The notes beneath the pieces are model-generated. The model was not told where the DNA came from, did no database searches, and saw only the letters and a list, made by a program, of their open reading frames with translations. Below, in pieces: positions 1,661 to 31,791 of a DNA stretch of 39,227 nucleotides. A program made the position numbers and the translations under genes. Source of the DNA: a virus (taxonomy: Duplodnaviria; Caudoviricetes). The DNA lies in the IMG/VR virus record IMGVR_UViG_3300044454_000036, positions 1-39,227 of that record. One strand, written 5' to 3'. Position 1 is the stretch's first letter. Each line of letters starts with the position of its first letter.

Positions 1661-1671
1661 CCTAGCCCAAG

Positions 1672-1729
1672 GGCCACCGTCCAAGGCCGCGTGCCTCCGG
1701 GGACTTCCCGCATCACATGGGCGGTGGCC
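1672..1729 (+). other. Intergenic multi-stem RNA structure
   Basis: GGCCACCGTCCA pairs with TGGGCGGTGGCC (12 bp, one G-U), enclosing AGGC/GCCT and CGGG/CCCG hairpins. Confidence 0.55.
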
Positions 1730-1735
1730 TCATCC

Positions 1736-1765
1736 TTGACATGCCCACTAGGCTCGATGTAGCCT
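1736..1765 (+). promoter_or_regulatory. Sigma70-type promoter
   Basis: TTGACA-18 nt-TAGCCT in the intergenic gap upstream of a GAAAGGAG RBS. Confidence 0.7.
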
Positions 1766-1795
1766 ACGGGGTAACCCGCTACTGAAAGGAGCATC

Positions 1796-2008
1796 GTGTT
1801 CATCGGGTCGCCACTAGAGGAGCCATTCAGGCTCATCACTTGGCTGGTCATCGGACTCCCGCTCGCCGCCGTCATCGTCTGGCTGGGACTCATCATCCTG
1901 AGTTTCATGCTGACGTTCGCAGCGCTGGCGGTGGGCGTCGTCATCAGCATGGTCGGGTACGTCATCGGTATCCCCTATGCCATCTACAACAGCCTCACGC
2001 ACCGCTGA
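1796..2008 (+). CDS. Small hydrophobic membrane protein (70 aa)
   Basis: GAAAGGAG RBS with GTG start; about 50 consecutive mostly hydrophobic residues. Confidence 0.8.
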   Translation: MFIGSPLEEPFRLITWLVIGLPLAAVIVWLGLIILSFMLTFAALAVGVVISMVGYVIGIPYAIYNSLTHR

Positions 2009-2019
2009 AAGGAGCCACC

Positions 2020-2589
2020 GTGCCTCACGCACCACTAGCCCCGGACTGGGAGGGCCACGGGGACATCGGGCCCGACCACGGACAGGCCAGAGCGTCCGAC
2101 CTGCCCACCGCCAAGGCCGCTGCCGCGCAGGTCAAGCCGGGTGGTGCCCGGTATGCCCTGCTGATTGCCCACCTATCCGACCTTGAAGGGATGACGGACG
2201 AGGAGGCTGCCATCAGGGCTGGCCTCTCGCTGACATCCGAATACGCCACACGCTGCTCCGAGTTGGCGCGTGCGGGCTATCTGCATGACACCACGCTGAC
2301 CCGAGTGGGCCGTTCAGGCGTTCGCCGGGTCGTGCGCTCCATCACCGACTTGGGCATCGACCTGATGAAGGCGCACGGGTACGAGCCCGTGGCCCCAAGC
2401 AAGTTCGTCTGTCAGGGCTGCGGCAAGGTGTCCGAGTTGAAGGACATGTACTCCAAGTGGGGCAAGCCGCAGGTCGTGGGCTGGATGCTCAACAGGGACG
2501 GCGTCGAGAAGCGGCTGATGGAGGCCAAGTGCATCACCTGTGAAACCAAGCCCCGCAAGGGCCTGCAAGCCATCTGGAGGGAGCAATGA
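2020..2589 (+). CDS. Winged-HTH DNA-binding protein with C-terminal Zn ribbon
   Basis: GAAAGGAG RBS with GTG 2020; ARASDLPT..AA then GMTDEEAA...YATRCSEL..AGYL..T..TR.GRSG (phage wHTH pattern); CQGC...CITC. Confidence 0.7.
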   Translation: MPHAPLAPDWEGHGDIGPDHGQARASDLPTAKAAAAQVKPGGARYALLIAHLSDLEGMTDEEAAIRAGLSLTSEYATRCSELARAGYLHDTTLTRVGRSGVRRVVRSITDLGIDLMKAHGYEPVAPSKFVCQGCGKVSELKDMYSKWGKPQVVGWMLNRDGVEKRLMEAKCITCETKPRKGLQAIWREQ

Positions 2590-2927
2590 GCGCCATCACC
2601 TATCTCGTCATCGAGCCTGACGGGAGCATCGAGGTCAAGACGGGCGTGCTGGGCGTGAAGGAGGCCCAAGCCATCTTGGCCAGCGACATCGAGATGCTGG
2701 ACGCCCCGGAAGGGCTCCGCGTCACCATCATCGTCGGCACCGAGGGCAAGACTCGTGGCGACAACCCCAACTGGGGCATCACGCGCCTCGTGCGCAGCCA
2801 ACTGCGTGCTGGTGACTTCGTCACCGGCAGGGTCATCATCGCGGGCATCACCGGGCCCGATGGCGACCCCACCTCCCTGACCGTCAAGGACGAGCAGGCC
2901 ATTCGCACCACCATCAACAGCAAGTGA
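2586..2927 (+). CDS. Hypothetical protein, DUF3846-like
   Basis: LVIEPDG...Q.IL...IE...EGK.....N...T...DFVTG..II.G...DGD..SL resembles DUF3846. Confidence 0.6.
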   Translation: MSAITYLVIEPDGSIEVKTGVLGVKEAQAILASDIEMLDAPEGLRVTIIVGTEGKTRGDNPNWGITRLVRSQLRAGDFVTGRVIIAGITGPDGDPTSLTVKDEQAIRTTINSK

Positions 2928-2934
2928 GGGAGAC

Positions 2935-3354
2935 ATGAGAGTCGTAGCCGCAATCGCACTCACCGCAGCCATCCTCATCGCCGGGGCCTCGCCTACCGTG
3001 GCCTTCGACACGCAGGACTTCGCCTCTCACGCCGTGGCGTGGCAGACCAAGTCGAGGGCCATCGTGAACGACATGCGCCCCAACCCCGCCAGCATCAACC
3101 GCTCTCTCAACCGGCTGGCTGCCTCAGTCGAGCGTTACACCGACTGGCTCTACGAGGCCGTGCCCGACCAATGCCAGCGCGAGCATGGCTTCGGCCAGCA
3201 CAGGTACTTCGTCAGGATGTACTACCAGAACGTCATCGGGGCCATGGTGGCGATGCCGAACACGCTCGTCGCCAGCCGCTACGTCAAGCGCTTCGTCTAC
3301 TACTACAAGCAGGCCGACAACGCTGGCTCGCGGGTCCTTGAGGCGTGTTGGTGA
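2935..3354 (+). CDS. Secreted protein with N-terminal signal peptide
   Basis: GGGAG RBS; MRVVAAIALTAAILIAGASPTVA followed by a soluble helical domain with 2 Cys. Confidence 0.75.
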   Translation: MRVVAAIALTAAILIAGASPTVAFDTQDFASHAVAWQTKSRAIVNDMRPNPASINRSLNRLAASVERYTDWLYEAVPDQCQREHGFGQHRYFVRMYYQNVIGAMVAMPNTLVASRYVKRFVYYYKQADNAGSRVLEACW

Positions 3355-3818
3355 GGTCTATCGACGTGCCGGGGCGACCCCGCCCTCAGGGGTCGCTCCG
3401 CACCATCTCCCCGCTGCGGGGCGGCAAGCCCGTGACCGTCCATGCCGACGCTCGCATCATGGACTACCGCAACGACATCCAGAACACGTGGGTGCGTGAC
3501 TCCCACACACCCCCCGAAACGGGCGACATCCTCATGCACCTCACGTTCTGGTTCGCACGCCCGAACGGGCACTACAAGGATGCGGCCCCCACGCTCAAGC
3601 GAGAGGCCCGCACCGTGTTGAGGCCGAGTGCGCCCTTCTACATGAAGAGCAAGCCTGACCTCGACAAACTCATCAGGGCGGTCGGGGACGCGCTCACCGG
3701 CTTCGCCTTCTGGGACGACCAGCAGGTCGTTCAGGTCCACGCCGCCAAGGTGTGGGGCGAATACGACCACACCCTCATCGAGGTAATGACGATGGAGGAA
3801 CACGATGCCGAGTCATGA
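3351..3818 (+). CDS. rusA: RusA-family Holliday junction resolvase
   Basis: VPGRPRPQGS...F.FARP...KPDLDKLIRAVGDALTG...DDQQVV...A.K motifs. Confidence 0.92.
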   Translation: MRSIDVPGRPRPQGSLRTISPLRGGKPVTVHADARIMDYRNDIQNTWVRDSHTPPETGDILMHLTFWFARPNGHYKDAAPTLKREARTVLRPSAPFYMKSKPDLDKLIRAVGDALTGFAFWDDQQVVQVHAAKVWGEYDHTLIEVMTMEEHDAES

Positions 3819-4110
3819 CTGGGACTGGACCTCGCAGGTCATCCAGCCTCACGGCTTCGCCACCATCGAATGGGACCACGCAGCGCTCCCGACCAAGTTC
3901 TGGGAGAGCGTGACCCGTATGCCCAACGGCTGCTGGAAGACGAACATCGAGCAGCCCAGCAACTACCGTGAGTTGGCCGTCCAGCGCATCACGAGGGTGA
4001 ACCCCAAGGACTGCCTCTCGATTACCCCCACGTGCGGCGACTACAGGTGCGTCAACCCGGCCCACACCTGCGTCACCCTTCGAACCGCACTCAGCCAGAG
4101 GGAGCAATGA
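3805..4110 (+). CDS. Degenerate HNH_3-like protein
   Basis: KFWESV....GCW and TCGDYRCVNPAH are present, but the catalytic His and the final xEN are missing. Confidence 0.65.
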   Translation: MPSHDWDWTSQVIQPHGFATIEWDHAALPTKFWESVTRMPNGCWKTNIEQPSNYRELAVQRITRVNPKDCLSITPTCGDYRCVNPAHTCVTLRTALSQREQ

Positions 4111-4364
4111 TGGGCACGACAGCCGAGGAGCAGCCCGAGTACCGAGGCGTCATCGCCAAGGCGGGGCACCAGTTCGAAATCATCACCACGGGCGCTGCCG
4201 ATACCGCTTACGGGCGACGTGGCGGCAGCCTCTACCCTATCGTCCTGTTGGCGGTGCTTACCGTCGCCCTTGCCTTGTCGGCAGGTCCCGTACTCCTGCT
4301 TGGCGTGGGTTTGCTGGCCATTCTGCTGCTGGGCATCTGGGTGGGCGGCGGTGGGCACCGCTGA
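4107..4364 (+). CDS. Membrane protein (C-terminal TM hairpin)
   Basis: ATGA overlap; LYPIVLLAVLTVALALSAGPVLLLGVGLLAILLLGIWV. Confidence 0.7.
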   Translation: MMGTTAEEQPEYRGVIAKAGHQFEIITTGAADTAYGRRGGSLYPIVLLAVLTVALALSAGPVLLLGVGLLAILLLGIWVGGGGHR

Positions 4365-4368
4365 CTAC

Positions 4369-4397
4369 TTGACAGTAGGCTAATATCGTGCCAACCT
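4369..4397 (+). promoter_or_regulatory. Sigma70-type promoter for the recombination/replication operon
   Basis: TTGACA-17 nt-CAACCT with an extended TG at 4389-4390; the -35 box sits within the inverted repeat CTACT-TGAC-AGTAG. Confidence 0.6.
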
Positions 4398-4434
4398 AGG
4401 GGTCCACATCCTTTGTTCTCTTGAAAGGAGACAC

Positions 4435-5301
4435 GTGAGCGGCGGTCCTATCAACGCTCAGATAGACACCGACACCGGCCTGAGGTACTACCAGTTCAAC
4501 GAGCAGCGGCTCGTGTCGGCCACGAGTATCCGCAAGTCGGTCGGGATGCCGAACGACCTGCACAACTGGGTCGTCAACCAGAACATCGACGCCCTCCTGA
4601 ACGACTCCACGCTGGCAATCGTCGCGCTTGCCAAAGAGTCCAAGGAGTTGGAGCGGCGCGTCAAGCACCGTGACGGGCGTGTCGAGACGGATGCAGAGGC
4701 GTACCTGCGGGCTCGCAGGGCTGCTCGCGCCATCGTGCGAAAGGCTGCCGACTTCGACCGTGATACCGCCGCTGCGCTGGGCACCGCCGTTCACGAGGCT
4801 GCGGACCAAGGCATCTCGGGCACCTCTCTGACCGACAGCGACGAGCGCAAGCCGTTCCTCGCCCAGTACGAGCGCTGGCAAATCGAGCAGCGGCCCGACA
4901 TCCTCCTGTCCGAGCAGCAGGTCTTCAACCTGACGCTTGGGTACGCCGGGTCCTTCGACCTCATCGCAGACATGCCGAACGGCACGTCGTACACGCGCAC
5001 GCTCATCGACATCAAGACAGGGAAGGGGGTCTATTCCGACCACGCATTGCAGTTGGCCCTCTACATGGGGGCCGAGTTCATCGGTGGCTTCGACCCCATC
5101 GAGGACATGGATGTCGTGTACGAGGTGCAGACCGAGGTCTTCAAGTCCTGCACCCAGATGGCCGTCCTGCACCTGCGGCCCGACATGTACGAGATGGTGT
5201 ACATCCCACTCACCGACGAGTTGGCGGCTGCTGCGGTGGACATGGTCCGCTTCTCGGCCTTCCTGCTCAAGCACCCAGACATCAGCACTCTGAAAGGATG
5301 A
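4435..5301 (+). CDS. PD-(D/E)XK exonuclease (Cas4/RecB-like phage recombination nuclease)
   Basis: SATSI...GTAVH...SEQQV...GYAGSFDLI...IDIKTGK....HALQLALY; GAAAGGAG RBS. Confidence 0.9.
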   Translation: MSGGPINAQIDTDTGLRYYQFNEQRLVSATSIRKSVGMPNDLHNWVVNQNIDALLNDSTLAIVALAKESKELERRVKHRDGRVETDAEAYLRARRAARAIVRKAADFDRDTAAALGTAVHEAADQGISGTSLTDSDERKPFLAQYERWQIEQRPDILLSEQQVFNLTLGYAGSFDLIADMPNGTSYTRTLIDIKTGKGVYSDHALQLALYMGAEFIGGFDPIEDMDVVYEVQTEVFKSCTQMAVLHLRPDMYEMVYIPLTDELAAAAVDMVRFSAFLLKHPDISTLKG

Positions 5302-5975
5302 CGACCATGGCCGCTACACCTGACCTGCTCACCACACTTGGCGAGCCCACCCCAATCGAGGAAATCAAGAAGCGCCCCATCTTCAACAAGGACAAGGTGA
5401 AGGTCGGGGAGTTGGACTACGTCGATGCCCGGTACGTCATGGACCGCCTCGACTCCACCGTGGGGCCAGCCTTCTGGCAGGACGCCTACGAGTTGCAGGG
5501 AGACGGCACCGTGAAGGCGCGTGTCGGCATCCTCTGCTCGCTCACCCCCGACCACGCCGAGTGGGTCTGGAAGGAGGACGTGGGCACCGAGTCCACCATC
5601 GAGGCCGAGAAGGGCGCCTTCTCCGACGCCTTCAAGCGTGCCTGCGTCAAGTGGGGCATCGCTCGTGACCTGTATGACGCACGTGCAGGGCAGTCGGGCA
5701 AGGGCCCCAAGCCTGCAGCCGGTCAGTCCAGCACGCAGGTCCGCGCTGCGACCAGCCAGCCCAAGTCCTTCCCCGTCAACCCCAGCGATGCGCCGTGGGT
5801 CTGCCCTGAGCATCAGGCCGTCAGCGCGTGGCCTGCTGGCACGTCAGCCAACGGTCGCAAGTACGACGCCTTCTACTCCTGCCCGCAGGGACGTGATTGC
5901 TCCCACCGTGCCCCCTTCGGGCTCAAGGTCAAGCCTGAGCATCTGACCGGGCACAACGACAACCTGCCCTTCTGA
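5298..5975 (+). CDS. Rad52/Rad22 (Sak-like) ssDNA annealing protein with C-terminal Zn finger
   Basis: YVDARYVMDRLD..VG...WQ..Y...WVWKEDVG......EKGAFSDAFKRACVKWGIARDLY; CPEH...CPQGRDC; SSB-like DNLPF tail. Confidence 0.9.
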   Translation: MTTMAATPDLLTTLGEPTPIEEIKKRPIFNKDKVKVGELDYVDARYVMDRLDSTVGPAFWQDAYELQGDGTVKARVGILCSLTPDHAEWVWKEDVGTESTIEAEKGAFSDAFKRACVKWGIARDLYDARAGQSGKGPKPAAGQSSTQVRAATSQPKSFPVNPSDAPWVCPEHQAVSAWPAGTSANGRKYDAFYSCPQGRDCSHRAPFGLKVKPEHLTGHNDNLPF

Positions 5976-6325
5976 TGGGCAGCAAGGTAGCCCTGCCGAC
6001 AGGCAGGACGGGTGGCCGCTCCGTCAAGCGTGACTTCTGGTTCGCTCGTGTCTTGGACGGCCAGCACCCGTCCGAGGACGAGCGCATCCAGATGGACCGC
6101 ATCATCCCGCCTGACGCCATCGCCTCATGGTCGTGGGCCATGGTTCACGCCGAGTTGAACGACTACTGGCTCGTCATCCAGTTGGACGACAGCAGCCCAG
6201 AGGTCAGGCGCAGGGACATCAACACCGTGCGTGCGTCCGTGTGGCGCACGTGCCAGAACAGGCGTGGCCTCGACCTGCACAGCACGGTCGTCGGTGACCG
6301 CATGTACATCAGGTCGCTGTCATGA
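5975..6325 (+). CDS. Hypothetical protein
   Basis: TGATG coupling with the upstream gene; GC3-rich codons. Confidence 0.7.
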   Translation: MGSKVALPTGRTGGRSVKRDFWFARVLDGQHPSEDERIQMDRIIPPDAIASWSWAMVHAELNDYWLVIQLDDSSPEVRRRDINTVRASVWRTCQNRRGLDLHSTVVGDRMYIRSLS

Positions 6326-6690
6326 ACATCCTCATCACGGGCACGAGGCACCCGCTGGTGGCCGAGTCGGTGCGCGTCATCATGAACGCCATCGACGCCA
6401 ACGTGCCCATGAGCAGGTACCACCTGCTCATCCACGGGGACGCCAAGGGCGTCGATACCTTCGTCGCGCAGCAGGCGGTGGAGTGGGGGTGGGACGTATG
6501 TGCCCACCCTGCCGACTGGACCGCCTACGGCAAGGCTGCTGGCCCGATGCGCAATCAGGCCATGCTCAACCATCACCGTGACATCAACCTCGTGCTGGCC
6601 TTCCCGGCATCCGACTCACGAGGGACGTGGGACATGGTCGAGCGTGCCGTGAAGGCACGCCTGAACGTGCGCGTCTACCCCCTGCCATGA
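6322..6690 (+). CDS. SLOG-superfamily protein (DUF2493/YspA-like)
   Basis: ILITGTR...IHGDAKGVD...PADW..YGKAAGPMRNQAM...VLAFP...SRGT.DMV..A. Confidence 0.9.
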   Translation: MNILITGTRHPLVAESVRVIMNAIDANVPMSRYHLLIHGDAKGVDTFVAQQAVEWGWDVCAHPADWTAYGKAAGPMRNQAMLNHHRDINLVLAFPASDSRGTWDMVERAVKARLNVRVYPLP

Positions 6691-7007
6691 GCGAGGACGG
6701 GTTCGAACGTGGCATGGAGGAGAGCGAGAAGGCTGCTCGCTACAAGTGGACCGACCTTGAGAACGAGATGGTCATGTATGCCATCGAGTACTGCGCGAGG
6801 ACCAGACCCGAGTTCACAGCCGACCGGGTGTGGGCCGTATTGGGCGAGGGCTTCCCCGTCACCAAGGGCATGGCTGCCCGACTGAACAAGTCTGCGGGCC
6901 TTGGCCTTATCGTGGCCACGGACGACTTCCGCAGGTCCACCCGCAAGGGCGAGCATGGCCGTGGCCAGCGGCTGGGCGTCTGGCGCAGCCTCATCTACAA
7001 GCCATGA
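6687..7007 (+). CDS. Putative wHTH DNA-binding protein
   Basis: ATGA overlap at 6687; EFTADRVW...GA-like...GLI..T....S.R...H.....VWRS is a common phage pattern. Confidence 0.6.
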   Translation: MSEDGFERGMEESEKAARYKWTDLENEMVMYAIEYCARTRPEFTADRVWAVLGEGFPVTKGMAARLNKSAGLGLIVATDDFRRSTRKGEHGRGQRLGVWRSLIYKP

Positions 7008-8056
7008 AGCCGAACGTCTACGCAGCGTTGGACCTCTATCTGGGGTCCTTCGCTGCCCGTCACGATGCCTTCGTCAAAGACTCGCACGTCCACCTCGAAA
7101 GACCCCTCACGCCCGAGGTAGCAGCCGCTGCCTTCGGCGTGGGGGGTTTCTCTGTTTCCGGCTACATGGCCGTCTTCAAGCCGTACGTCGATGACCTTGG
7201 CGTCACGTGGGCAGCGCAGCGTGTGTGCATGACGCACGTGGGCGCTATCGACTTCGACATGGAGGATGGTTTCGACAGGGCCAAGGTCGTGCGCTCTTTC
7301 CTTGGCACGCAGGGCATCGACTCCCTGCTCGTGGGCTCACGACGTGGCGCTCACCTCTGGGTCATCACCACGGGTGACGGCTCGCACGAGTCCGAAACCT
7401 TCGGCATGGTGCCCGCTGCGACCATGCGGCGTGCCCTCAAAGCGGCCCTCACCCTGTGCGGGATAAGCGACCCCAAGGCAGAGGTCTTCCCCAAGGACAG
7501 CGCCTCTGACTGGGGCGTGGGTGCCCTGCGCATGCCCCTGATGCGGCACCCCAAGTCAGGTGTACGCTACCCAGCCTATGACCCCTTCGATGACTCGCCC
7601 ATCACGTCCGTTGGCACCCTCGTGAACGTGATGGCAGACATCCAGATGGCGACCGCGTACAAGGCTCTGTACGCCCTCGCAGGCCCTGAAGTGGGTCCAG
7701 AGCCGTATCCGGGGAGACAGGGCCTGCAGCGCCCGCCTATCGTGGCCACGGGGGACGCTCCGAGAGTGTCGGACCTTCTCGCGCACCACTTCGGGCTGCA
7801 GGTCACGCCCGGCAGGTCCATCAAGTGCCCCATCCACCCTGATAGCCACGCCTCCATGTCGGTCGCAGACGACGACATGCGGGTCTGGTGCAAGGCTCCT
7901 GAGTGCCCCATCTACAACGGGGACACGGGCCTAGGGTCGCTGGGGCTGGAGAGTTACCTTGGAAAGGGGACACCGCCTTGCTCCACGCCATCGAGCAGAC
8001 CGCCAACGGGTACAGGGTCGGCTTCAAGTCCGACGCCGGGAGAGCGCCCTACCTGA
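7004..8056 (+). CDS. AEP-superfamily primase-polymerase (TOTE-like) with C-terminal CHC2-type Zn finger
   Basis: AIDFD (motif I), SRRGAHLW (motif II), EVFPK...G.GALRMPL; CPIHPD...S.SV....WCKAPEC. Confidence 0.85.
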   Translation: MKPNVYAALDLYLGSFAARHDAFVKDSHVHLERPLTPEVAAAAFGVGGFSVSGYMAVFKPYVDDLGVTWAAQRVCMTHVGAIDFDMEDGFDRAKVVRSFLGTQGIDSLLVGSRRGAHLWVITTGDGSHESETFGMVPAATMRRALKAALTLCGISDPKAEVFPKDSASDWGVGALRMPLMRHPKSGVRYPAYDPFDDSPITSVGTLVNVMADIQMATAYKALYALAGPEVGPEPYPGRQGLQRPPIVATGDAPRVSDLLAHHFGLQVTPGRSIKCPIHPDSHASMSVADDDMRVWCKAPECPIYNGDTGLGSLGLESYLGKGTPPCSTPSSRPPTGTGSASSPTPGERPT

Positions 8057-9051
8057 CCTTCGACTTCGACTACGTCGAGCCGACCTCGTGGGGGATATTG
8101 ACCACCCTCACCGTGCGCACCACCATCGACACCATCACCTCCCTCCCTGATGATGTCGTCCTCCTCACCCGCATGAACCTCATGAAGGAGTCCGAGAGGG
8201 AGCAGGTCGCCAAGCGCATCGGCGCTCTCATCGTGCCCCAGCAGAGCGCGACCCCTCAGGACTGGCGACGGCACCTAGAGTGGGCCACCGTCATCCTCAA
8301 CTCCCAACTCCAGAAGTCGGTCCCCACCATGGACATGTCCGGTGAGGTCATGACCGAGCGGCGCAAGTTCCTCATCGACGGCCTGCTCGCTCAGGGCAAA
8401 GCGAACATCCTGTACGGCCCCGGAGGCGCAGGCAAGTCCGTGCTGGCGGTGCGCATCGCGGCAGCCGTGGCCCATGGGGGCAACCTCTTCGGGTGGGCGG
8501 TCAGGGAGGAGGGCACGACCCTCTACCTCGACTGGGAGGACGACGCCACCACCATGGTCGAGCGCACGCACATGGTGGCCAAGGGCATGGGGCGCAGGGA
8601 CAACGTGCCCATCATCTACCAGTCCCTGCACGGCAAGGGACCCTACGAGCGGCACCACGCTGACGTGCTGTTCCACGTGAAACAGGACCCGAACATCAAG
8701 TTGGTCATCTTCGACAGCACGGCCATGGCCATGCACGGCAGCAGCGCAGGTGATGGAGCGGACGGGGCCATCAGGTTCTACTCGCTGGTGTCACAGATAC
8801 CGGCCACGGTGCTGCTCCTCGACCACCTGAGCAGCGACGACGTGAAGGCTGGCAGCGCAGCCAAGCCATACGGCTCTGTCTTCAAGGTCAACTCCGCACG
8901 CAACGTGTGGGAACATCGCCCATGGAACCCGCAGGCTGGGGTCACGGGCTTCACGCTCGTGCATCGCAAGACGAACGTCGGGCCACGCTTGCAGGACCGG
9001 GACGTGTCCGTGTCATGGGGAGCAGACGACGTGAGGTTCGATGACCTATGA
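7978..9051 (+). CDS. AAA_25/RepA-like SF4 DNA helicase
   Basis: Walker A YGPGGAGKS, LYLDWE, Walker B LVIFDS, LLDH, PYGSVF..NSAR; start is TTG 7978 after GAAAGGGG, or the frame is reached by frameshift. Confidence 0.88.
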   Translation: MLHAIEQTANGYRVGFKSDAGRAPYLTFDFDYVEPTSWGILTTLTVRTTIDTITSLPDDVVLLTRMNLMKESEREQVAKRIGALIVPQQSATPQDWRRHLEWATVILNSQLQKSVPTMDMSGEVMTERRKFLIDGLLAQGKANILYGPGGAGKSVLAVRIAAAVAHGGNLFGWAVREEGTTLYLDWEDDATTMVERTHMVAKGMGRRDNVPIIYQSLHGKGPYERHHADVLFHVKQDPNIKLVIFDSTAMAMHGSSAGDGADGAIRFYSLVSQIPATVLLLDHLSSDDVKAGSAAKPYGSVFKVNSARNVWEHRPWNPQAGVTGFTLVHRKTNVGPRLQDRDVSVSWGADDVRFDDL

Positions 9052-24582: not shown

Positions 24583-27500
24583 TTACTGTAGCACTCCACC
24601 GGGCTGCAACCTTGATGGTTCCGGCATTTCCGGTGGCATCAAACCACGGCTGCGCAGGTCAGCCTGCTCGGCCTCCACGCGCTTCCGCTCCGCTAGTGGG
24701 ACGTATGTCCCAGTCGCCATCTGCACGGCAGACTGCAGCGACTTCTGCAGGTCCCCGGCGACGGCGAGGATGTCCTTCGGCGCACGACCGGGGCCGAAGG
24801 CGTACTGCACGGTGTCGGTGATGGCAGCGCCGATGTTCGGCTCATCGCCAGCCCATGCGTTCTGGGCCAGCCTGCGCGTCCACGCAGGCGCGTTGACCGG
24901 GATGTCCCAAGGCGTGCCCGGCACCATCAACTGCATGAAGTGCGTGAGGGCTGGCATCGACTCGACCAAGTCCGCGATGGTGCTGTCGTCCGTGGCCAGT
25001 TCCAGTTGGACGGCCTCCCAGACGTGGTTGACCATGGCCAGCCCGGCGAACGGAGCGTCCACCCCGAAGGGCTTGCGCACGAGGAAGCGCATCAACTCGG
25101 GCAGCACCTTGCCCCACATGTAGGAGGCCGGGTACATGCCGAGATAGGGATGGTTGATGGTGCGCTCCAGCAGCGTGCGCCCACGCTTGTAGTAGTGGAC
25201 CCGGAACGCCTCTTCCTCGGCCCGCTGCAGGGCCACGCGAGCCGCCTCAAGGATGCGGTACTCGTTCACGTCGAAGGTGGCGGCTGGCCCGCGATGGACC
25301 TCGGGCGTCATGGAGTCGAAGAGCCCTTGGATGGACGGGTCGATGTGCTGACCCGCGACCTTGTTGGGGTTCAGGGTCTGCCACATCTGGGCGTACTGGT
25401 TGAAGACGGCAGCGATGGTCGGGTCACCGACAGGAGCGACACCTGTCGCCACGTACTCTTCGAAGGCAGCCGCCATCCACTCCTCGGCCTCGCGCACGAG
25501 GACGTTGTTGGCGTTCTTCCCGGTCGGCTGGACGCCGCCACGCTTCAGGAACGCTTGCCCCTCAGGACTGGCGAAGAAGACGTTGTGGATGGTCTTGATG
25601 GCCGATGGGTCGAGGTCGTCGGCCATGAAGTGGAACGTCTCGTGGACGACCGTCGTTACGTCGGCCTTTCCTCGCTTGAGATAGAGAGTCCCCCTTCGAC
25701 CGGAAGTGGCTCCGGTAGCGACTCGCTGGGCGGTGGTTCGCCCTCGGTCCCAAGCGACGGCTCCTCGGAAGCCTCGGGGGCTGTACTGGGTAAGGATGTT
25801 CCCACCCCCGGTCCCTGCTGCTCCGACAGAGCGGTCTGGGCCATCAACGAAGCCGAGGCGACTTCGTCCTCTAGCCCAAGCCTCGGGGTCTGACTTTCGG
25901 ATGGCGGTGTCTGCTCTGGCTCGTAGGGTTGCCATATGCCCACCGACCACTCGTTGTCTGACATCGTCCTTACCTCGTGCTGTCAGGTCGGCCTGCAACT
26001 TGCGACCCATCTCCTCGGCCCAGATGGCGTCGGCTGCAGGGCCCTCGGCGCCTTCCTTGGTGATGCGAGCCTCGGCCCTCGCTTCGTCACCATCGTAGTC
26101 GTGCTTGCGCCGCTTCGTCACGAACAACTCTCGTGCGACCGTGACCCTCTGCGGGTCGAGGCCCATCTCCGTGGCCCACTTGCCGCTCTCCAGCGTGTCC
26201 ACGATGGACTGGGGCAGGACCATCTGCTCCGTGAACATCTCACGGTCGAGCCCGTCAAGGTCGTCGTACAGCGTGCGCACCGACTCGCCCAGCGTGCGGG
26301 GAGTCATGGCCATCATGGAGCCGTCCCAGCGGAAGCCCTCCTTGCCACGCTGGCTGCCAAGCCACAGGCGCAGGGCCTCCAGCGTGCGAGCGTCGGCCCC
26401 GCCCTCGGGCACGAAGTCGATGCCCCAGACGCGGCCACCCTTGACGTTGCTGGACGAGAAGTCACTCAGCCTGCCGGGGTAGGTGACGGCCACGATGTCA
26501 CGGTTCTGTGTCAGCAGCGAGAGTGAGTCCAGAGCGTCGTCAATGGCCTCAGGAGCCCCGATGATGCTCCATGACGTGTTTGCACTCACGACGCCGTCCG
26601 TGCGGCCCCAGCCCGGCTGATGGCGCAGCACGGTGACGCCCGTCTCCTGCTCGATGATGTCCACCAAGTCGGCGGTCACGGTGCGAGTGACGTGGTCCTG
26701 ATGGTCAGGCGTCAGCATGGAGAGGTCGAAGCCCCGGCGTAGCGGCACGTGGTCGCTGGGCCGATATTCGAACTCCACGTCCACGATGTTCTTGCCGACC
26801 ATGCCGTAGTGGCTATCCGGGTCGAGGCCCAGTTGCTTCTGGATGCGCAGCCAGTCAACGGCCTGCACGTCACGAGCCTCCCACGCTCGCCCACCACGCT
26901 CGTCCATCAGGTAGCCAGAGGCGTTCCACTCTTGGGCGATGGTGTTGTACTTGTGCGTGATGAACTCGTACTGCTTCGTGGACGGCTGCCCACCAGCCAC
27001 ATCCTTGACCGACTTCAGGCCGAGTTGGTTGGCCACGTCGGCCATGGCCTGCTTCTCCATGGCCTCGCTGATGGGCCCCTTGTAGCCCTGCTGTCGCAGC
27101 ATGTGCCGACCCGCGTAGCGCAGGAAGCCCTCGTCCGCGAAGCCTGACGCTCGCAGCGCCCAGACATCACCAGCCACCGGCTGGCTGCTGTCCACATACG
27201 AGACACCATCGTCAGCCAGCATGACGGTGCGCTGGGACAAGCCGAGGTTGCCGTCCGTGAAGTCGTGCAACTTGGCGGCTGCGCCCGCAGAGGTGACGGA
27301 GTCTTCGAAGTCCCTGAGCATGCGGTCCAGTTGCCTGTTCAACTCGGGCTTGGTGATGCCCTTCTGGTCTGGACGCCTGCCGCGCAACTCGCGGTCCATC
27401 ATCTTCGTGATGTAGCCGATGCCGTCTCGTGGCGAGGTCTGCGACTGTGTCATCGACCACGCCATCATCATGCGAGCGGCGACCTCGTCCCTCACGTTGT

Positions 27501-30500
27501 CGAGGTCGTTGAGGTCGATGCTCGGCACCGACTTCATACGCTGGTTCATGAGGGTGGCGTAGTCGGTAATCGTCTCGTCCGTCAGGTTGCGAGCGAGCGA
27601 CGTGAACATGGACGGGATGTACAGGTACCAGTCGCCTGCCGACGCCACGTTCTGCCTGCCCAAGACCTGCTCGGCACGAGCGGTGAAGTCCTTGAGCGAG
27701 ACGGCAGGGTCCATGTCGATACCGGCCACGCTTGCACCAGCCTTGGCCTTGCCCTTGCCTTCGGGCACCCAGTCAACGGCAGAGCCGCCAGCCGCGATGT
27801 GGGCTCGCAGCCCGTTCCCGGCATTGACATGGTCCTTGCGAACATCGGGCCTGCGCGTCTGGACATGCAACTCGCGAGCCCGGTCACGGACACGCAGCGC
27901 CTCGGGCGAGTCGGGCGCGAACTGCTCCCAGCCCCACTCGTCGTAGATGTCATTGAAGACACGCTGCGGGTGGGCGGTATACGGCAACTTGGCGTTGCTG
28001 TTGAGCCAGACCGCAGGGCCCGTGAACTTCTGGGCCAGATACTCTTCGACGCTGATGCCCTTGCTGTTGGCGATGATGGTGTGCCAGTCGCGCATGAGGC
28101 CCACGGCCAAGTCACGCTCGACCGGGTTCGTGTAGTGCTGGGCGACCGAGGCGTACAACTCGTCAGGCTCGACACCCACGGCCACGGCGTAGGCCCGTGC
28201 GGCGTATTCAGGGCTGAAGCCATGCTCGACCAGCGACTCGCGGAAGCCCCACTCCTCTAGGGGGTCGGTCGGGTCAAGGAGGCCAGCCCGCAGTTCAAGG
28301 CCAGAGTCGTAGCCGAACTGCTTGGCAAGGTACGACTTGTTGATGCCACGGATGCGACCGAACTCGTCAGGCACGGCGCCGTCGTAGTGGTGGATGCTGA
28401 CCCAGTCGTTGTCCGGGTTGTAGAGGCCCTTGTGCTTCAGGTACTGCTCGGCCACCTCGGCGTGGCTCAGGTTGCCCTTGCCTCCGCTGCGCTTGTCAAG
28501 GTCGTTGAAGTGCGACTGCAGCCTCGTCCATGCGCCGGGGTACTCCTTCTCCAGCGCGTCGTGGAGCAGCGTCCCGAACTCCTGCCTGATGAGGTTGTAG
28601 TAGTTCATCAACTTGGGCGTGCCGACCTTGCCCATGGGCATGTCATCGAAGGCTGCAGCCAACGGCGTGTTCGGGCCAGCGATGTTGCGAGCGTGCTGTG
28701 CGCCCGTCATCAGGAACTCGCGTGACTCGAAACCGTCAGCCAGATGCGAGGCCACGTTCATCTCGTCAATCAGCGAGTGGAACCTGATTTGCTCTGGTGT
28801 GAACTTCATGCCGAACTTCACACCGCGCAGGGCGTTGAAGAAGTAGGGCTCGATGAACTCCTGCATCAGGAAGACGGGGTTCAGGTTGAAGCGGATGGCC
28901 GGGTAGATACCCTCGGCCAGCCTGCCCATGTAGTTGCCGTGCCGCGAGGTGCGCGTCTTCAGGTTGCCCGTCAACTTTGAGGTGCCGCCCACCAAGGCAA
29001 GGTCCGACTCCATGGCCCGTGCCACCAGTTCGGCCAGCCCACGGTAGCCCAGACGCTGCCGGTCGAAGGTCGAGATGTTCGTGCCGTCAAGGATGGCCCG
29101 GAAGCGCTCAGGCGTGAATGAGCGCATGGTCGTCATCTCGGCATTGGCAGCCCGCCTGACCGACTCCCAGAGCGTCATCGACGTGGCCCTGCTCAGGCCG
29201 TACCGCTTGGCCCCCTCCTGCGTGAACGAGCGGCGAGCCTCCTGCATGATGTTCTCGCCACGGATGGGCGTGAAGAGGCGTTCCCGCAGCACGTCGAAGC
29301 GGGTGGGGTTCGTGACATCCTCTGGCGTGGGCCGAATGTCCATCCACGGGTAGTAGCCGACGAGGGCGCCGTCCTCACCGTAGATGGGCTGCCAGCGCTT
29401 CTCGCGTGAGGGAGCGATGCCGAACTCATACGCCTCACCACGAGCGTGCAGTTCAGCACGCAGGGCCTGCATGTTGGCTGGCAGGTTGGCCTCGTTGATG
29501 ACCGTCACGAAGCGGTCGTTCTTGATGCCGTCCGTGAGGATGGCCTTGACCTGCTTGAGCAGCACCTCGTCCGAGGTGATGCGCACCTTCTCGTAGATGT
29601 TCTGGTACAGGACTTCGTACTGGTGGATGGCGTCCTCTGCCAGCCGCACCGCCGTCGCTTCGTCGGCTGCGTTCTCGATGGAGTCGAGCAGCGTGCGAGC
29701 GTTCGCCATCGTCAACTCACGGTCGCCCACGAGCGTGGCACGAGTGATGATGCTGTAGGCGTCCAGCGCCGCTGCCGCCCCGTCAAGGTCAGCCTGCGCC
29801 GCGTTCGGCATGATGGCCTGCTGCGCCGACATCTTGACCGTCTGCTGCCCGCCGATGGCATCAGCCCTGCGGGCCGCTTCGAAGTCGAGGATGGTGCGGC
29901 CCCAATGCGCGTAGTGAACGAAGGCCAGTTCGTCGGGGCCAGCCTTGCTCAGAGCAGTACGCGCCTCGCTGACCGTGATGCCAGCGGCGTGCGACAACTT
30001 CATGGCGTACTCGTCACGGGCGCGGTCCATCTGGCGGGCGTACTCGGCCTGTGCCTCCTTGCCCACCCGTGAACCCACGTCTGGCACGACATCGCGCTTG
30101 ACCCTGCGGACGTGCGACTCCATCTGCTGCGCCTGAGCCGGGTTGCCCACCTTGCGCATCTGGGCAAGCACAGCGTCAGGGTCAGAGAGCGTGTCTGGCA
30201 GGTTGGCAGGGTTCGTGAACTTGCCGTCAGCGTCCCGCCTGTAGAAGCGCACGAGCCGCTGCAGGTTGCCCTGCAGGAGGGAGCGCTGTGAGTAGCCCAG
30301 CGCCGCTCCGACCGACTCGTTGAGGGCGGCAGAGTCAGGCACAGCGCGGTAGATAGCGGCCACCTTCGGCATGTCGAAAGCAGCGAACATGCCCTGAGCC
30401 GTGTTCCTCGTGAAGCGCTTGAGGACGACACCGGCTGCGCCGTCCCTGCCGAAGATGCTGAACGGGGCATTGGCCAACTCGCTGACGCGAGCCGCAGCCT

Positions 30501-31791
30501 CGATGCCCTGCCTGACGCCGGTCGTGTTCATGGCCCGGTCGAAGGGAGAGAGCGCGGCATCCGCCTCGTCCGTGATGGACTTCCATTGCGGCGTGCCCTT
30601 CAACTGCTCGCCCAACTCGCCAGCCAGCCGGTACGTCCCATCGACCGTCTTGAGGTCGAACGCCTTTCCAGCAGCGAGGTCGCCAGCGGCCAGCCGGTCG
30701 GTCGCGTTCTTGACGGCAGCCATCACGATGTTGTCGGTCGAGCCACCAGCGATGCGGGCGATTTGAGCGGCACGGTTAGCGATAGGGCCCACGCGCACGA
30801 CGCTTGCGGCAGCGCCCGTGGCGAAGCCAGCGAAGATGACGGGGTCGGCCACCATCTCGGCCACCATGCCGATGAACGGGTCGTCGGCCCAGCCGAAGCC
30901 AGCCTGTGTAATCTCGTCGTTGAAGCGGTCCAGCGCCTCCTCTGAGCCCACGGAGCCGTAGTCACCGCGCAGATAGCGGTCACGCAGTTCGATGAGGGCC
31001 GGGTGCGTAGCGTTCGCCAGCACCTCCTCGGCCCGACCGAAGTTGCCCGCCATGGTGCGGCTCACCATCTGGGCCGGGATGCCCAGCAGCGCGAAGGCTC
31101 GCTCCAGCAGCGTGGCGTCTGGCCGGATGAGCATGCCCATCACCTGCGGCAGCCCCTTGGCCGCAGCGTAGTCACCCTGATGCGTGCGCAGGTACTGGCT
31201 CATGTACCACTCGGCGTGCGTCGGGTCAGACTCGATGGTGGACATGGCCTGCTGCTTCTCCGGGGTCATGGCAACCATGTCGAAGGCGCCCTTGACGTTC
31301 TCGCCGCCCAGCATCTCGTTGATGGGCACGTGCGTCAGCAACTCCAGCGGGACATCGGCCACCTGACCGATGCCCTGAGCCAGTCCGACCAGCGGCTGCC
31401 GGATGTCACCGGGCAGCACGCCCGTGAACGCTTCGACCAGCCCGCCCAGCATGCCCTCTGCGAAGCCGACCTGACGGGGTGGCGGCTGCGCTGCCTCGCC
31501 CTCCAGCGGCACGGGGTCATACACGTCCCCGGAGAACTGGACGCTCGTCTTGCCCAGCCGGTCTGCCTGCGCATCCTCCAACTCGGGCGCGGCAGGAGCG
31601 GTCATCTTGGAGCCGTAGGCGACCTGCCCCGGCTGCAGCCCGCCACCGATGCGCGGAGGGATGGAGCCACCGAACTCGGTCGAGGAGCGGGAGCCCGGAG
31701 AGCCACCCCGGACGGTCCAGTCCAAGATGACATCTGGAGCCTGAGGGATGTTCTGCACACCGGGCGGCAGCATGCTGCGCTGCTCGACCAT
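24583..31791 (-). CDS. Giant polyvalent internal virion (DNA-ejection) protein with zincin HExxH and HhH-glycosylase-like (DUF7178-like) domains
   Basis: 2402 aa, largely helical; TTVVHETFH...EEWMA.AFE.Y..TG.AP; DWY...SMTQSQTSP...KL.DF...V..DVW...Y...QAVDW. Confidence 0.75.
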   Translation of the reverse strand: MVEQRSMLPPGVQNIPQAPDVILDWTVRGGSPGSRSSTEFGGSIPPRIGGGLQPGQVAYGSKMTAPAAPELEDAQADRLGKTSVQFSGDVYDPVPLEGEAAQPPPRQVGFAEGMLGGLVEAFTGVLPGDIRQPLVGLAQGIGQVADVPLELLTHVPINEMLGGENVKGAFDMVAMTPEKQQAMSTIESDPTHAEWYMSQYLRTHQGDYAAAKGLPQVMGMLIRPDATLLERAFALLGIPAQMVSRTMAGNFGRAEEVLANATHPALIELRDRYLRGDYGSVGSEEALDRFNDEITQAGFGWADDPFIGMVAEMVADPVIFAGFATGAAASVVRVGPIANRAAQIARIAGGSTDNIVMAAVKNATDRLAAGDLAAGKAFDLKTVDGTYRLAGELGEQLKGTPQWKSITDEADAALSPFDRAMNTTGVRQGIEAAARVSELANAPFSIFGRDGAAGVVLKRFTRNTAQGMFAAFDMPKVAAIYRAVPDSAALNESVGAALGYSQRSLLQGNLQRLVRFYRRDADGKFTNPANLPDTLSDPDAVLAQMRKVGNPAQAQQMESHVRRVKRDVVPDVGSRVGKEAQAEYARQMDRARDEYAMKLSHAAGITVSEARTALSKAGPDELAFVHYAHWGRTILDFEAARRADAIGGQQTVKMSAQQAIMPNAAQADLDGAAAALDAYSIITRATLVGDRELTMANARTLLDSIENAADEATAVRLAEDAIHQYEVLYQNIYEKVRITSDEVLLKQVKAILTDGIKNDRFVTVINEANLPANMQALRAELHARGEAYEFGIAPSREKRWQPIYGEDGALVGYYPWMDIRPTPEDVTNPTRFDVLRERLFTPIRGENIMQEARRSFTQEGAKRYGLSRATSMTLWESVRRAANAEMTTMRSFTPERFRAILDGTNISTFDRQRLGYRGLAELVARAMESDLALVGGTSKLTGNLKTRTSRHGNYMGRLAEGIYPAIRFNLNPVFLMQEFIEPYFFNALRGVKFGMKFTPEQIRFHSLIDEMNVASHLADGFESREFLMTGAQHARNIAGPNTPLAAAFDDMPMGKVGTPKLMNYYNLIRQEFGTLLHDALEKEYPGAWTRLQSHFNDLDKRSGGKGNLSHAEVAEQYLKHKGLYNPDNDWVSIHHYDGAVPDEFGRIRGINKSYLAKQFGYDSGLELRAGLLDPTDPLEEWGFRESLVEHGFSPEYAARAYAVAVGVEPDELYASVAQHYTNPVERDLAVGLMRDWHTIIANSKGISVEEYLAQKFTGPAVWLNSNAKLPYTAHPQRVFNDIYDEWGWEQFAPDSPEALRVRDRARELHVQTRRPDVRKDHVNAGNGLRAHIAAGGSAVDWVPEGKGKAKAGASVAGIDMDPAVSLKDFTARAEQVLGRQNVASAGDWYLYIPSMFTSLARNLTDETITDYATLMNQRMKSVPSIDLNDLDNVRDEVAARMMMAWSMTQSQTSPRDGIGYITKMMDRELRGRRPDQKGITKPELNRQLDRMLRDFEDSVTSAGAAAKLHDFTDGNLGLSQRTVMLADDGVSYVDSSQPVAGDVWALRASGFADEGFLRYAGRHMLRQQGYKGPISEAMEKQAMADVANQLGLKSVKDVAGGQPSTKQYEFITHKYNTIAQEWNASGYLMDERGGRAWEARDVQAVDWLRIQKQLGLDPDSHYGMVGKNIVDVEFEYRPSDHVPLRRGFDLSMLTPDHQDHVTRTVTADLVDIIEQETGVTVLRHQPGWGRTDGVVSANTSWSIIGAPEAIDDALDSLSLLTQNRDIVAVTYPGRLSDFSSSNVKGGRVWGIDFVPEGGADARTLEALRLWLGSQRGKEGFRWDGSMMAMTPRTLGESVRTLYDDLDGLDREMFTEQMVLPQSIVDTLESGKWATEMGLDPQRVTVARELFVTKRRKHDYDGDEARAEARITKEGAEGPAADAIWAEEMGRKLQADLTARGKDDVRQRVVGGHMATLRARADTAIRKSDPEAWARGRSRLGFVDGPDRSVGAAGTGGGNILTQYSPRGFRGAVAWDRGRTTAQRVATGATSGRRGTLYLKRGKADVTTVVHETFHFMADDLDPSAIKTIHNVFFASPEGQAFLKRGGVQPTGKNANNVLVREAEEWMAAAFEEYVATGVAPVGDPTIAAVFNQYAQMWQTLNPNKVAGQHIDPSIQGLFDSMTPEVHRGPAATFDVNEYRILEAARVALQRAEEEAFRVHYYKRGRTLLERTINHPYLGMYPASYMWGKVLPELMRFLVRKPFGVDAPFAGLAMVNHVWEAVQLELATDDSTIADLVESMPALTHFMQLMVPGTPWDIPVNAPAWTRRLAQNAWAGDEPNIGAAITDTVQYAFGPGRAPKDILAVAGDLQKSLQSAVQMATGTYVPLAERKRVEAEQADLRSRGLMPPEMPEPSRLQPGGVLQ
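25656..25964 (-). CDS. Overprinted acidic protein (102 aa) in an alternative frame inside the giant gene
   Basis: GAGGT RBS 7 nt upstream of the ATG; local loss of host-frame codon bias coincides with this ORF. Confidence 0.6.
   Translation of the reverse strand: MSDNEWSVGIWQPYEPEQTPPSESQTPRLGLEDEVASASLMAQTALSEQQGPGVGTSLPSTAPEASEEPSLGTEGEPPPSESLPEPLPVEGGLSISSEERPT

What the first reader, a model, noticed from the sequence alone, without database searches (positions are those of the whole stretch)
25656..25976. Overprinted acidic gene hidden inside the 2402-aa polyvalent protein: a possible built-in inhibitor or immunity partner
Seen: across about 25655-25985 the giant gene abruptly uses codons rare elsewhere in this phage (CGA, AGA, GGA, GCA, CTA) and becomes R/G-rich. 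An alternative frame on the same strand is open for 102 codons over the same span, starts with ATG, has GAGGT 7 nt upstream (GAGGTAAGGACGATG) and uses GAG/CAG/CCG-type codons. Its product is very acidic and Pro/Ser-rich with no Lys. It lies downstream of the glycosylase-like domain and ends about 4 codons before HETFH. Inference: the nested product is translated separately and may neutralise or chaperone the DNA-acting or protease domain while the ejection protein is made in the cytoplasm (acidic DNA mimic), forming an effector-immunity pair within one locus.
Basis: partly seen in the sequence, partly recalled or inferred. Interest (0 to 1): 0.85.

Follow-up and report, generated by a model that had tools for sequence, protein, structure and literature searches.

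The report
Hidden inhibitor gene inside phage effector
A small second gene is written one base out of step inside a phage's giant virion-protein gene, is conserved with the same two-domain module in many unrelated phages, and its product is predicted to dock on that module, so it is likely a built-in inhibitor that travels with its effector and that annotation misses.

Summary
Confirmed and extended. The 102-codon +1-frame ORF (25964-25656, minus strand, GAGGT 7 nt upstream) behaves as a gene. In 37 family homologues the frame has 0 stops where 8.6-17.7 are expected, ribosome-binding sites cluster at its start, and the codon anomaly ends at its stop. In close strains, 8 of 10 changes in residues 1-63 are silent in the nested frame, and 7 of these alter the host protein. 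It belongs to a module: HhH-glycosylase-like domain A, tandem ferredoxin-like domain B, then a helix carrying the nested gene. In 42 further viral loci picked by a host-frame motif, that motif itself spells the start (41 of 42; 0 stops versus 43 expected). Secreted cellular B homologues lack the nested gene (21 examined); four truncated cassettes keep it alone. A complex model places residues 3-14 on domain B (0.64, best control 0.02), not on the glycosylase or protease. Acidity is not conserved, so DNA mimicry is unsupported. Best reading: a built-in cognate inhibitor of the A-B module; translation and inhibition are untested. No paper found. This scan has noted analogous nested genes on other phage DNA.

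The parts
25656..25964 (-). Nested +1-frame gene, 102 aa: short conserved N-terminal motif (W-S-V at residues 6-8) followed by a P/S/T/E-rich, probably disordered tail
25972..25976 (-). Shine-Dalgarno-like GAGGT, 7 nt before the nested ATG, spelled by host codons Arg-Gly (CGA GGT)
   Evidence: -7.2 kcal/mol
25923..25958 (-). Nested residues 3-14, predicted to bind domain B
   Evidence: prediction only; motif conservation
24583..31791 (-). Host gene: 2402-aa polyvalent protein between portal/997-aa gene and scaffold/capsid genes of a podovirus-like phage; virion location inferred from context
26737..27639 (-). Domain A (host aa about 1385-1685): HhH-GPD glycosylase-like fold; activity untested
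   Evidence: pLDDT 83; best Z 7.2, rmsd 4.1, 153 aligned, to T. maritima 8-oxoG glycosylase; many HhH glycosylases below it; middling Z
26107..26739 (-). Domain B (host aa about 1685-1895): tandem ferredoxin-like domain of unknown function
   Evidence: no Pfam, PHROG or PDB sequence family
26479..26583 (-). Main predicted docking surface on domain B (host aa 1737-1771), spanning the conserved P-N and Q-[DE]-x-V positions
25822..26094 (-). Helical segment H (host aa about 1900-1990), the C-terminal part of the B module, over which the nested gene's start and conserved motif are written
   Evidence: (helices, pLDDT 88-97 over most of it)
25432..25800 (-). Zincin-like metallopeptidase (MPTase) domain; HETFH at 25644-25630, downstream Glu at 25482-25480; its first strands overlap the nested gene's last third
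   Evidence: definition from PMC5512222

Best explanation
The stretch encodes two proteins: the host's helical segment and, one base out of step, a small gene with its own ribosome-binding site and start that is likely translated separately and is predicted to bind domain B, where it would hold the A-B effector module inactive while the giant protein is made in the producing cell. Shown here: the open frame, start signal and short hydrophobic motif are under selection; the gene travels with the A-B module in phages of 35-73% GC; it is absent from secreted cellular B homologues; it survives alone in truncated cassettes. Predicted: residues 3-14 dock on the conserved surface of B. Inferred: the ribosome initiates internally on the late mRNA, the peptide binds B in the cytoplasm, and the module is freed of it on packaging or injection, so that it acts only in the newly infected cell. 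Because the gene is written over the module's own C-terminal helix, it stays linked to the module wherever the module is shuffled, at a gene end or deep inside a polyvalent protein. What the module does (DNA base excision or modification by A, an unknown reaction by B) is not established.
For: Stop avoidance: 0 +1 stops in 37 genes x 60 codons versus 8.6 +/- 2.0 (shuffle keeping the A-rich usage) or 17.7 +/- 3.0 (gene-wide usage); four other frames not clearly depleted. Start signal: SD duplex <= -8 kcal/mol at a +1 start near the onset in 19 of 37 versus 3.8% of 1573 control windows and 0 of 37 in the +2 frame; A3 falls from 0.188 to 0.051 across the +1 stop. Close strains: 2.2-3.0% divergence inside versus 6.3-11.4% in flanks in 4 of 4 runs; 8 of 10 variants in residues 1-63 silent in +1, 7 of them changing the host residue. 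W-x-[VIM] in 20 of 37 products where the host residues of those 20 predict 1.7. Independent set: 42 viral loci chosen by a host-frame motif have ATG or GTG at a fixed +1 position in 41 (22.1 expected) and 0 stops in the next 45 codons (43.2 expected); their module is homologous to the window's (hhalign 98.2%, E 3.4e-14). A-like domain upstream in 40 of 42 viral loci with enough sequence. 21 stand-alone cellular B homologues, 20 with signal-peptide-like leaders: no A3 excess (0.07 vs 0.06), nested-family score <= 5 bits; 4 truncated cassettes keep the nested gene (17-54 bits) without A or intact B. Complex model 0.64, best of 3 controls 0.02; the mark was reached by 116 of 157 solved and 2 of 215 mismatched pairs; runs share at least 35% of contacts, partner pLDDT at least 38.
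Against: No translation, toxicity or inhibition data. No activity is shown for A or B; fold matches are middling (A best Z 7.2; B best Z 6.5). The partner's fold in the complex model is uncertain (pLDDT 38-42) and only this one pair was modelled. The last third of the nested protein drifts: 11 of 11 variants in residues 75-101 change it and one run has a stop at residue 96. Sequence conservation across the family is low (one short motif; 9 of 37 products show neither motif). Coupling is not perfect: L006, L021 and L044 carry the anomaly without a B profile hit, and L013 has B with only a weak signal. The cellular homologues are mostly one branch of the tree, so their lack of the gene may be one event. 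Binding to B fits a chaperone or activator equally well.
Confidence: 0.55

Rival explanations
1. The nested protein is real and binds B, but as a folding chaperone, packaging aid or activating subunit that completes B's sheet, not as an inhibitor.
For: Same conservation and complex evidence. A short strand-like motif docking between the two ferredoxin-like repeats could be structural.
Against: Cellular B homologues exist without it (0 of 21 score as the nested family), so B can fold alone; four cassettes keep the nested gene after losing A and most of B, which a private chaperone would not explain, although recent decay could.
Confidence: 0.22
2. One reading: an acidic DNA mimic that blocks the glycosylase-like domain A, or an inhibitor of the neighbouring metallopeptidase.
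For: Net charge -17 in this phage, and the tails (after residue 35) have median charge -6; A accompanies B in 40 of 42 viral loci; in 31 of 52 homologues the gene lies just upstream of HExxH. The complex job held residues 1-63 only, so the acidic tail was not modelled.
Against: 8 of 37 products are neutral or basic and many in the wider family are Lys/Arg-rich. The gene sits 400-700 codons from HExxH in 6 homologues, and homologues that keep the protease but lack A-B mostly lack it. All confident predicted contacts are on B although A and the protease were in the same chain.
Confidence: 0.1
3. The frame is translated, but the act of translation matters (control of ribosome traffic or mRNA stability over the 3' part of the giant gene), or it is the tail of a +1 frameshift product that lacks the protease.
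For: The low-complexity tail is poorly conserved; some homologues have only weak SD sites or none found near the onset (8 of 37 weaker than -6 kcal/mol).
Against: Strong SD plus start codons interchanging among ATG, GTG and TTG; amino-acid-level selection on residues 1-63 and on the W-x-[VIM] motif; in 14 of 42 loci the host gene ends within 125 codons with no protease to skip.
Confidence: 0.08
4. No second protein: the anomaly is a DNA or RNA element or relaxed codon selection in a linker, and the open frame is chance.
For: The window's own segment folds better than shuffles (z -3.2). Long +1 open frames are common in GC-rich genes (about 24 to 29 of 37 expected open by chance). A first pooled test on A3-defined segments showed no stop deficit (27 vs 29.0), because stops lie at the segment edges.
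Against: Folding z is not conserved (mean -0.02 in 18 family loci, -0.67 vs -0.58 control in 16 others); no Rfam family near threshold; no promoter-like site; T-ending codons of Arg and Gly are not raised while A-ending ones rise about tenfold; the host segment is predicted helical, not a linker; 0 vs 43.2 stops in the independent set.
Confidence: 0.05

Closest known systems
Polyvalent proteins of phages (Iyer et al. 2017, PMC5512222; passages read)
   Same: Giant multidomain protein among virion genes with a zincin-like MPTase domain (HExxH plus downstream Glu) and shuffled effector domains.
   Different: The main text has no occurrence of 'overlap' or 'linker', and its hits for 'nested', 'reading frame' and 'immunity' concern other matters; no glycosylase-like or ferredoxin-like domain is named there; A and B hit no Pfam LPD model. 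Its FTP supplements were not seen.
Polymorphic toxin-immunity pairs and orphan immunity genes (Zhang et al. 2012, PMC3482391; abstract and section list seen)
   Same: A small cognate gene follows an effector module, moves with it, and also occurs detached from it.
   Different: Here the small gene is out of frame inside the effector's own coding sequence, the module is usually internal (host continues >150 codons or past the fetched end in 28 of 42 loci), delivery is inferred to be by virion, and toxicity is untested.
Same-strand nested genes: lambda Rz1 in Rz (recalled, no call) and E. coli GndA in gnd (PMC11230408; abstract seen)
   Same: Fully embedded gene in a shifted frame on the same strand; for Rz/Rz1 the two products are partners (recalled).
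   Different: Rz/Rz1 are co-operating lysis subunits and GndA acts independently of its host enzyme; here the nested gene is tied to one mobile domain of a modular protein and its start signal is spelled by a conserved host motif.
HhH-GPD DNA glycosylases (for domain A)
   Same: Best fold matches are 8-oxoG and 3-methyladenine glycosylases and the queuine-salvage hydrolase (Z 7.2-6.1, rmsd 4.1-4.4).
   Different: About 10% identity, middling Z, no sequence match to PDB or Pfam; substrate unknown.
Phage SAM lyases (T3 gp0.3, Svi3-3; PMC7877911, passages read), considered for domain B
   Same: Ferredoxin-like fold; a G-x-[WY] ... Q-[DE] spacing recalls Gly56/Tyr58 and Gln104/Glu105; two cellular B homologues are fused to a PNP_UDP_1 nucleosidase/phosphorylase domain.
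   Different: No conserved Glu at the catalytic position; profile-profile probability under 1%, like reversed controls; not among the listed fold matches.

Membership tests
Same-strand nested (overprinted) protein-coding gene | Open frame conserved beyond what the host protein forces | tested here: met
   0 vs 8.6-17.7 stops; 0 vs 43.2
Same-strand nested (overprinted) protein-coding gene | Own initiation signal | tested here: met
   SD <= -8 kcal/mol in 19 of 37 vs 3.8% of controls; start codon in 41 of 42 vs 22.1
Same-strand nested (overprinted) protein-coding gene | Purifying selection on the nested amino acids | tested here: met
   Residues 1-63: 8 of 10 variants silent in +1; not met for residues 75-101 (11 of 11 change it)
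Same-strand nested (overprinted) protein-coding gene | Product is translated | not testable with these tools
   No ribosome profiling or MS available
Polyvalent proteins (Iyer 2017) | Large multidomain protein with MPTase, encoded among virion genes | tested here: met
   2402 aa between portal and capsid genes; H, E, H and downstream E invariant in 33 rows
Polyvalent proteins (Iyer 2017) | Packaged and injected with the DNA | not testable with these tools
   Inferred from gene context only
Toxin-immunity pair (polymorphic-toxin type) | Small cognate gene linked directly downstream of the effector module | tested here: met
   Follows B in both sets; overlaps the module's last helix instead of following a stop; three family loci lack a B profile hit
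Toxin-immunity pair (polymorphic-toxin type) | Direct binding of the small protein to the effector | tested here: inconclusive
   Model passes (0.64 vs 0.02; 116 of 157 solved, 2 of 215 mismatched reach the mark) but is a prediction with partner pLDDT 38-42
Toxin-immunity pair (polymorphic-toxin type) | Effector is toxic and the small protein neutralises it | not testable with these tools
   Needs expression tests
Toxin-immunity pair (polymorphic-toxin type) | Effector is the variable C-terminal domain of a secreted protein | tested here: not met
   Internal here (about 410 host residues follow H) and in 28 of 42 loci; near-terminal in 14 of 42
Acidic DNA-mimic inhibitors (Ocr/Ugi type; features recalled) | Conserved strong negative charge | tested here: not met
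   Median -5, 8 of 37 >= 0; Lys/Arg-rich members
Phage SAM lyases (domain B) | Ferredoxin-like fold | tested here: met
   (generic ferredoxin-like matches, Z <= 6.5)
Phage SAM lyases (domain B) | Conserved catalytic Glu (Glu69) with Gly56 and Gln104 | tested here: not met
   G and Q conserved, no conserved Glu between them in alignment A9; alignment to SAM lyase itself not obtained
Phage SAM lyases (domain B) | Structural match to a solved SAM lyase | tested here: inconclusive
   Not listed; the model was 451 residues and B was not folded alone
HhH-GPD glycosylase superfamily (domain A) | Two-lobed helical HhH fold | tested here: inconclusive
   Consistent but middling matches, best Z 7.2

The most novel reading that the evidence does not exclude
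Phage polyvalent proteins solve the self-protection problem of modular injected effectors by overprinting each effector's inhibitor on the effector's own last helix, with the ribosome-binding site and start codon spelled by a conserved protein motif. This A-B module is then a new, widespread effector (base-excising or base-modifying domain plus an uncharacterised ferredoxin-like enzyme, possibly acting on SAM or a nucleoside) with a motif-type peptide inhibitor, and the truncated cassettes in bacterial genomes are captured immunity genes that protect cells against it.
Probability: 0.35. Interest if true: 0.92.

Novelty: new variant of a known kind. Interest (0 to 1): 0.8.

Why it matters
Polyvalent virion proteins carry toxin-like domains in mid-chain, and how the producing cell tolerates them is unexplained in the paper that defined them (passages read). 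An inhibitor overprinted on the domain itself would answer that, and here it is testable at once because removing the start by a change silent in the host frame separates the two products. It also defines a new small-protein family and a new two-domain module found in phages of 35-73% GC and in bacterial genomes, hidden from annotation, and shows that some conserved 'protein motifs' are partly translation signals of a second gene.

Tried and rejected
Single-protein locus search found nothing; no cultured phage or plasmid match by tblastn with six queries (one search gave only three E=9 hits); no relative of the C-terminal region in genome contigs. No Pfam or PHROG family for host or nested protein (stray single-member hits only); no PDB sequence match; Foldseek gave no PDB match at E <= 0.001; viral-structure matches were other giant phage proteins. 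The Atlas gave no usable hit. No RNA holder listed among sequencing runs. Pooled over all 52 genes, +1 stops were short only in the -100 to -60 bins, because 21 genes lack the feature at that place. The segment-based stop test was null (27 vs 29.0) since stops mark the edges; it was replaced by a fixed 60-codon core. The excess of TAA/TAG terminators (24 of 37 vs 85 of 1637) is not used as evidence: in-ORF codon usage (12 xTA, 37 xTG) predicts about half. SAM-lyase identity of B was not supported. Conserved RNA structure rejected. Antisense and +2 frames not clearly depleted of stops (+2 49 vs 59.8, P 0.05). Two A-rich patches in other genes (about 20650-20470 and 12700-12520) have stops in +1 and show no clear nested gene. 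The careful tree did not finish; only the quick tree was read. Literature searches aimed at a prior report (listings only) showed none; subscription papers and the Iyer FTP supplements were not searchable.

Full report
Setting. The window is a whole 39,227-base virus record, 65% GC, with terminase, P22-like portal, capsid and tail-type genes on the minus strand. The 2402-aa gene (31791-24583) has no Pfam or PHROG match. Its last 900 residues have 426 relatives at E <= 0.001 among 50%-identity representatives; no cultured phage matched.

The observation. It holds at the stated coordinates. The ORF is in the +1 frame, starts 7 nt after GAGGT, and stops 11 nt before HETFH. Host-frame GC3 and codon adaptation reach their minimum here, with 30 A-ending codons against 5.3 expected. 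Every CGA in the stretch reads GAG or GAA in +1. The +1 frame's own codon adaptation is unremarkable, so homologues were needed.

Family test. Two scans gave 130 loci, 106 distinct genes with the window; 52 distinct genes had an HExxH with at least 200 codons upstream. Of these, 31 have an A3 excess (z >= 3) in the 120 codons before HExxH and all 31 are open in +1 from -89 to -30; 16 of the other 21 have stops there. In six genes (five of those 21, plus L044) the anomaly lies 400-700 codons further upstream. These 37 genes, selected on A3 excess, were used next. In a fixed 60-codon core they have 0 stops in +1 against 8.6 or 17.7 under two synonymous nulls, while the other four frames are not clearly depleted. 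An earlier test on A3-defined segments was null (27 vs 29.0) because stops mark the segment edges. Starts with SD duplex <= -8 kcal/mol lie near the onset in 19 of 37 (<= -6 in 29), against 3.8% (15.2%) of 1573 control windows; of positions with a strong SD upstream, 22 of 122 near the onset are start codons against 4 of 114 further in; A3 drops from 0.188 to 0.051 across the +1 stop and much less across stops in other frames. A W-x-[VIM] motif occurs in 20 of 37 products (1.7 expected from the host residues of those 20), seven carry [MT]-V-F at what appears to be the same place, and nine have neither.

Close strains. Contigs of four public runs differ by 2.2-3.0% inside the ORF and 6.3-11.4% beside it (computed by subtracting the piece counts). 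In residues 1-63, 8 of 10 variants are silent in the nested frame and 7 of those change the host residue; of 36 listed flank variants (a truncated table) 23 are at host position 3 and 7 at position 1 (P 0.0008). In residues 75-101, which overlap the protease strands, all 11 variants change the nested protein, one to a stop at residue 96. So the N-terminal part is selected as protein and the tail is loose.

What it belongs to. The host region is A (HhH-glycosylase-like, best Z 7.2), B (two ferredoxin-like repeats), a helical segment H, then the MPTase. H is predicted to be folded, not a linker. Homologues that keep the protease but lack A-B mostly lack the anomaly; exceptions are L006, L021 and L044 (anomaly, no B profile hit) and L013 and L009 (B, weak signal). 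L135, matching P0015 whose A and B are only partly detected, shows none.

The wider family. A host motif from L013 (N-D-W-x3-P-x-[NDH]-G-E-x-Y), with the start-forming base and the SD positions left free, matched 81 viral stretches, 47 distinct; five already counted or of the window's family were dropped. In the other 42 (GC 35-73%, median pairwise identity about 20%) the [NDH]-G codons give ATG or GTG in +1 in 41 (22.1 expected), often after an SD spelled by W-K-E, and the next 45 codons hold 0 stops (43.2 expected). Products are mostly 50-108 aa, many beginning M-A-K with a D-[DH]-P-[IM]-[FY] motif, followed by a low-complexity tail; many are basic. In 14 the host gene ends within 125 codons, in some with the small gene straddling its stop; in 28 the host runs on. 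This module is homologous to the window's B-H (98.2%, E 3.4e-14). An A-like domain precedes it in 40 of 42 loci with 500 codons upstream (one of the two profiles was built from these loci, so this count is partly circular). Gene callers have occasionally called the small protein alone (1 and 10 hits); that is no evidence of expression.

Natural contrasts. The same pattern in bacterial genomes gave 40 loci, 37 distinct. Twenty-one are stand-alone B homologues, 20 with signal-peptide-like leaders judged by hydrophobicity and by eye; they have no A hit, no A3 excess, a start in only 5, and nested-family scores <= 5 bits. Three are long A-B or B fusions with the nested gene (27-52 bits). Four keep only the end of B, or a broken B, with an intact nested gene (17-54 bits), one in Roseateles violae. 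The remaining nine were weak, cut or unrelated matches and were not scored. The 17 cellular rows in the quick tree form one branch together with one phage row, so this contrast may be a single event.

Binding model. With A, B, H and MPTase (746 aa) as one chain and residues 1-63 as partner, the score was 0.64 against 0.02 for the best of three controls; 116 of 157 solved and 2 of 215 mismatched pairs reach this mark; runs share at least 35% of contacts and partner pLDDT is at least 38. Residues 3-14 contact host aa 1737-1744, 1761-1771 and 1822-1831, at the conserved P-N and Q-[DE]-x-V positions of B. These lie outside the overlapped DNA, so covariation forced by the overlap does not explain them (inference). 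It supports binding and does not show it.

Mechanism. Shown: a selected open frame with its own start signal, tied to the A-B module. Predicted: motif-mediated binding to B. Inferred: inhibition during synthesis in the cytoplasm, with release on packaging or injection. I give about 0.95 that the gene is real, about 0.7 that it binds B, and 0.55 that it inhibits. A chaperone or activator role is the main rival. Conserved RNA structure is excluded for the family, although the window's own segment folds well. B's activity is unknown; the SAM-lyase resemblance was recalled, tested, and not supported, though two cellular homologues are fused to a nucleosidase/phosphorylase domain.

Comparison and novelty. 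Nested same-strand genes (Rz1, recalled; GndA, abstract) and toxin-immunity pairs (abstract) are known; nine literature searches (listings only) and passages of the polyvalent-protein paper showed no report of out-of-frame partners inside polyvalent proteins or of this module. Supplements were not read and could name A or B. Earlier AI notes of this scan describe analogous nested genes on other phage DNA, one after an HhH-like domain; none matched this family by sequence and I did not check them. I class it as a new variant of a known kind, interest 0.8.

Noticed in passing
L220, L221, L222, L225, L226, L229, L231-L233, L235, L237, L238, L240, L242, L246, L248, L253, L254 (bacterial genomes): An unannotated family of about 250-320-aa bacterial proteins with signal-peptide-like leaders, homologous to phage domain B (hhalign 99.6%), mostly in Alphaproteobacteria and Acidobacteriota; no Pfam match in the six scanned beyond one weak hit.
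   Followed up: partly
L223:1192-3135, L241:2911-4824 (Hyphomonadaceae): Domain B fused behind a PNP_UDP_1 nucleosidase/phosphorylase domain with a lipoprotein-like leader; a lead that B acts on a nucleoside or SAM-related substrate.
   Followed up: partly
L224:3020-3193 (Roseateles violae), also L217, L218, L244: Truncated cassettes that keep only the end of domain B (L217: a broken B) with an intact nested gene; they look like orphan immunity genes.
   Followed up: partly
L013, L014, L019, L021, L044: Rearranged family members in which a different glycosylase-like domain (judged by eye from motifs) lies downstream of the B-H module instead of upstream.
   Followed up: partly
L006:9966-10235: Strong nested-gene signal before the protease although neither A nor B is detected upstream; possibly a retained orphan or a replaced effector.
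   Followed up: no
L001, L010, L011, L025, L087: The nested frame runs 30-65 codons past the HExxH motif, so it overlaps the protease active-site helix in these homologues.
   Followed up: no
L014 host codons about 582-713: A second A-rich codon segment with stops in both shifted frames; unexplained.
   Followed up: no
window about 20650-20470 and 12700-12520 (minus strand): Milder A-rich codon patches in the 860-aa and 535-aa genes; +1 has stops, no clear nested gene.
   Followed up: partly
window 1265-9051 (+ strand): Early-region genes include HNH_3, DUF3846, RusA, a PD-(D/E)XK nuclease, a Rad52-like annealing protein, a SLOG-family protein and an AAA_25 domain; no integrase among the 21 ORFs scanned.
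   Followed up: partly
window 25780-25984 (minus strand): The start region of the nested gene folds more stably than shuffles in this phage only (z about -3.2); not shared by homologues.
   Followed up: yes
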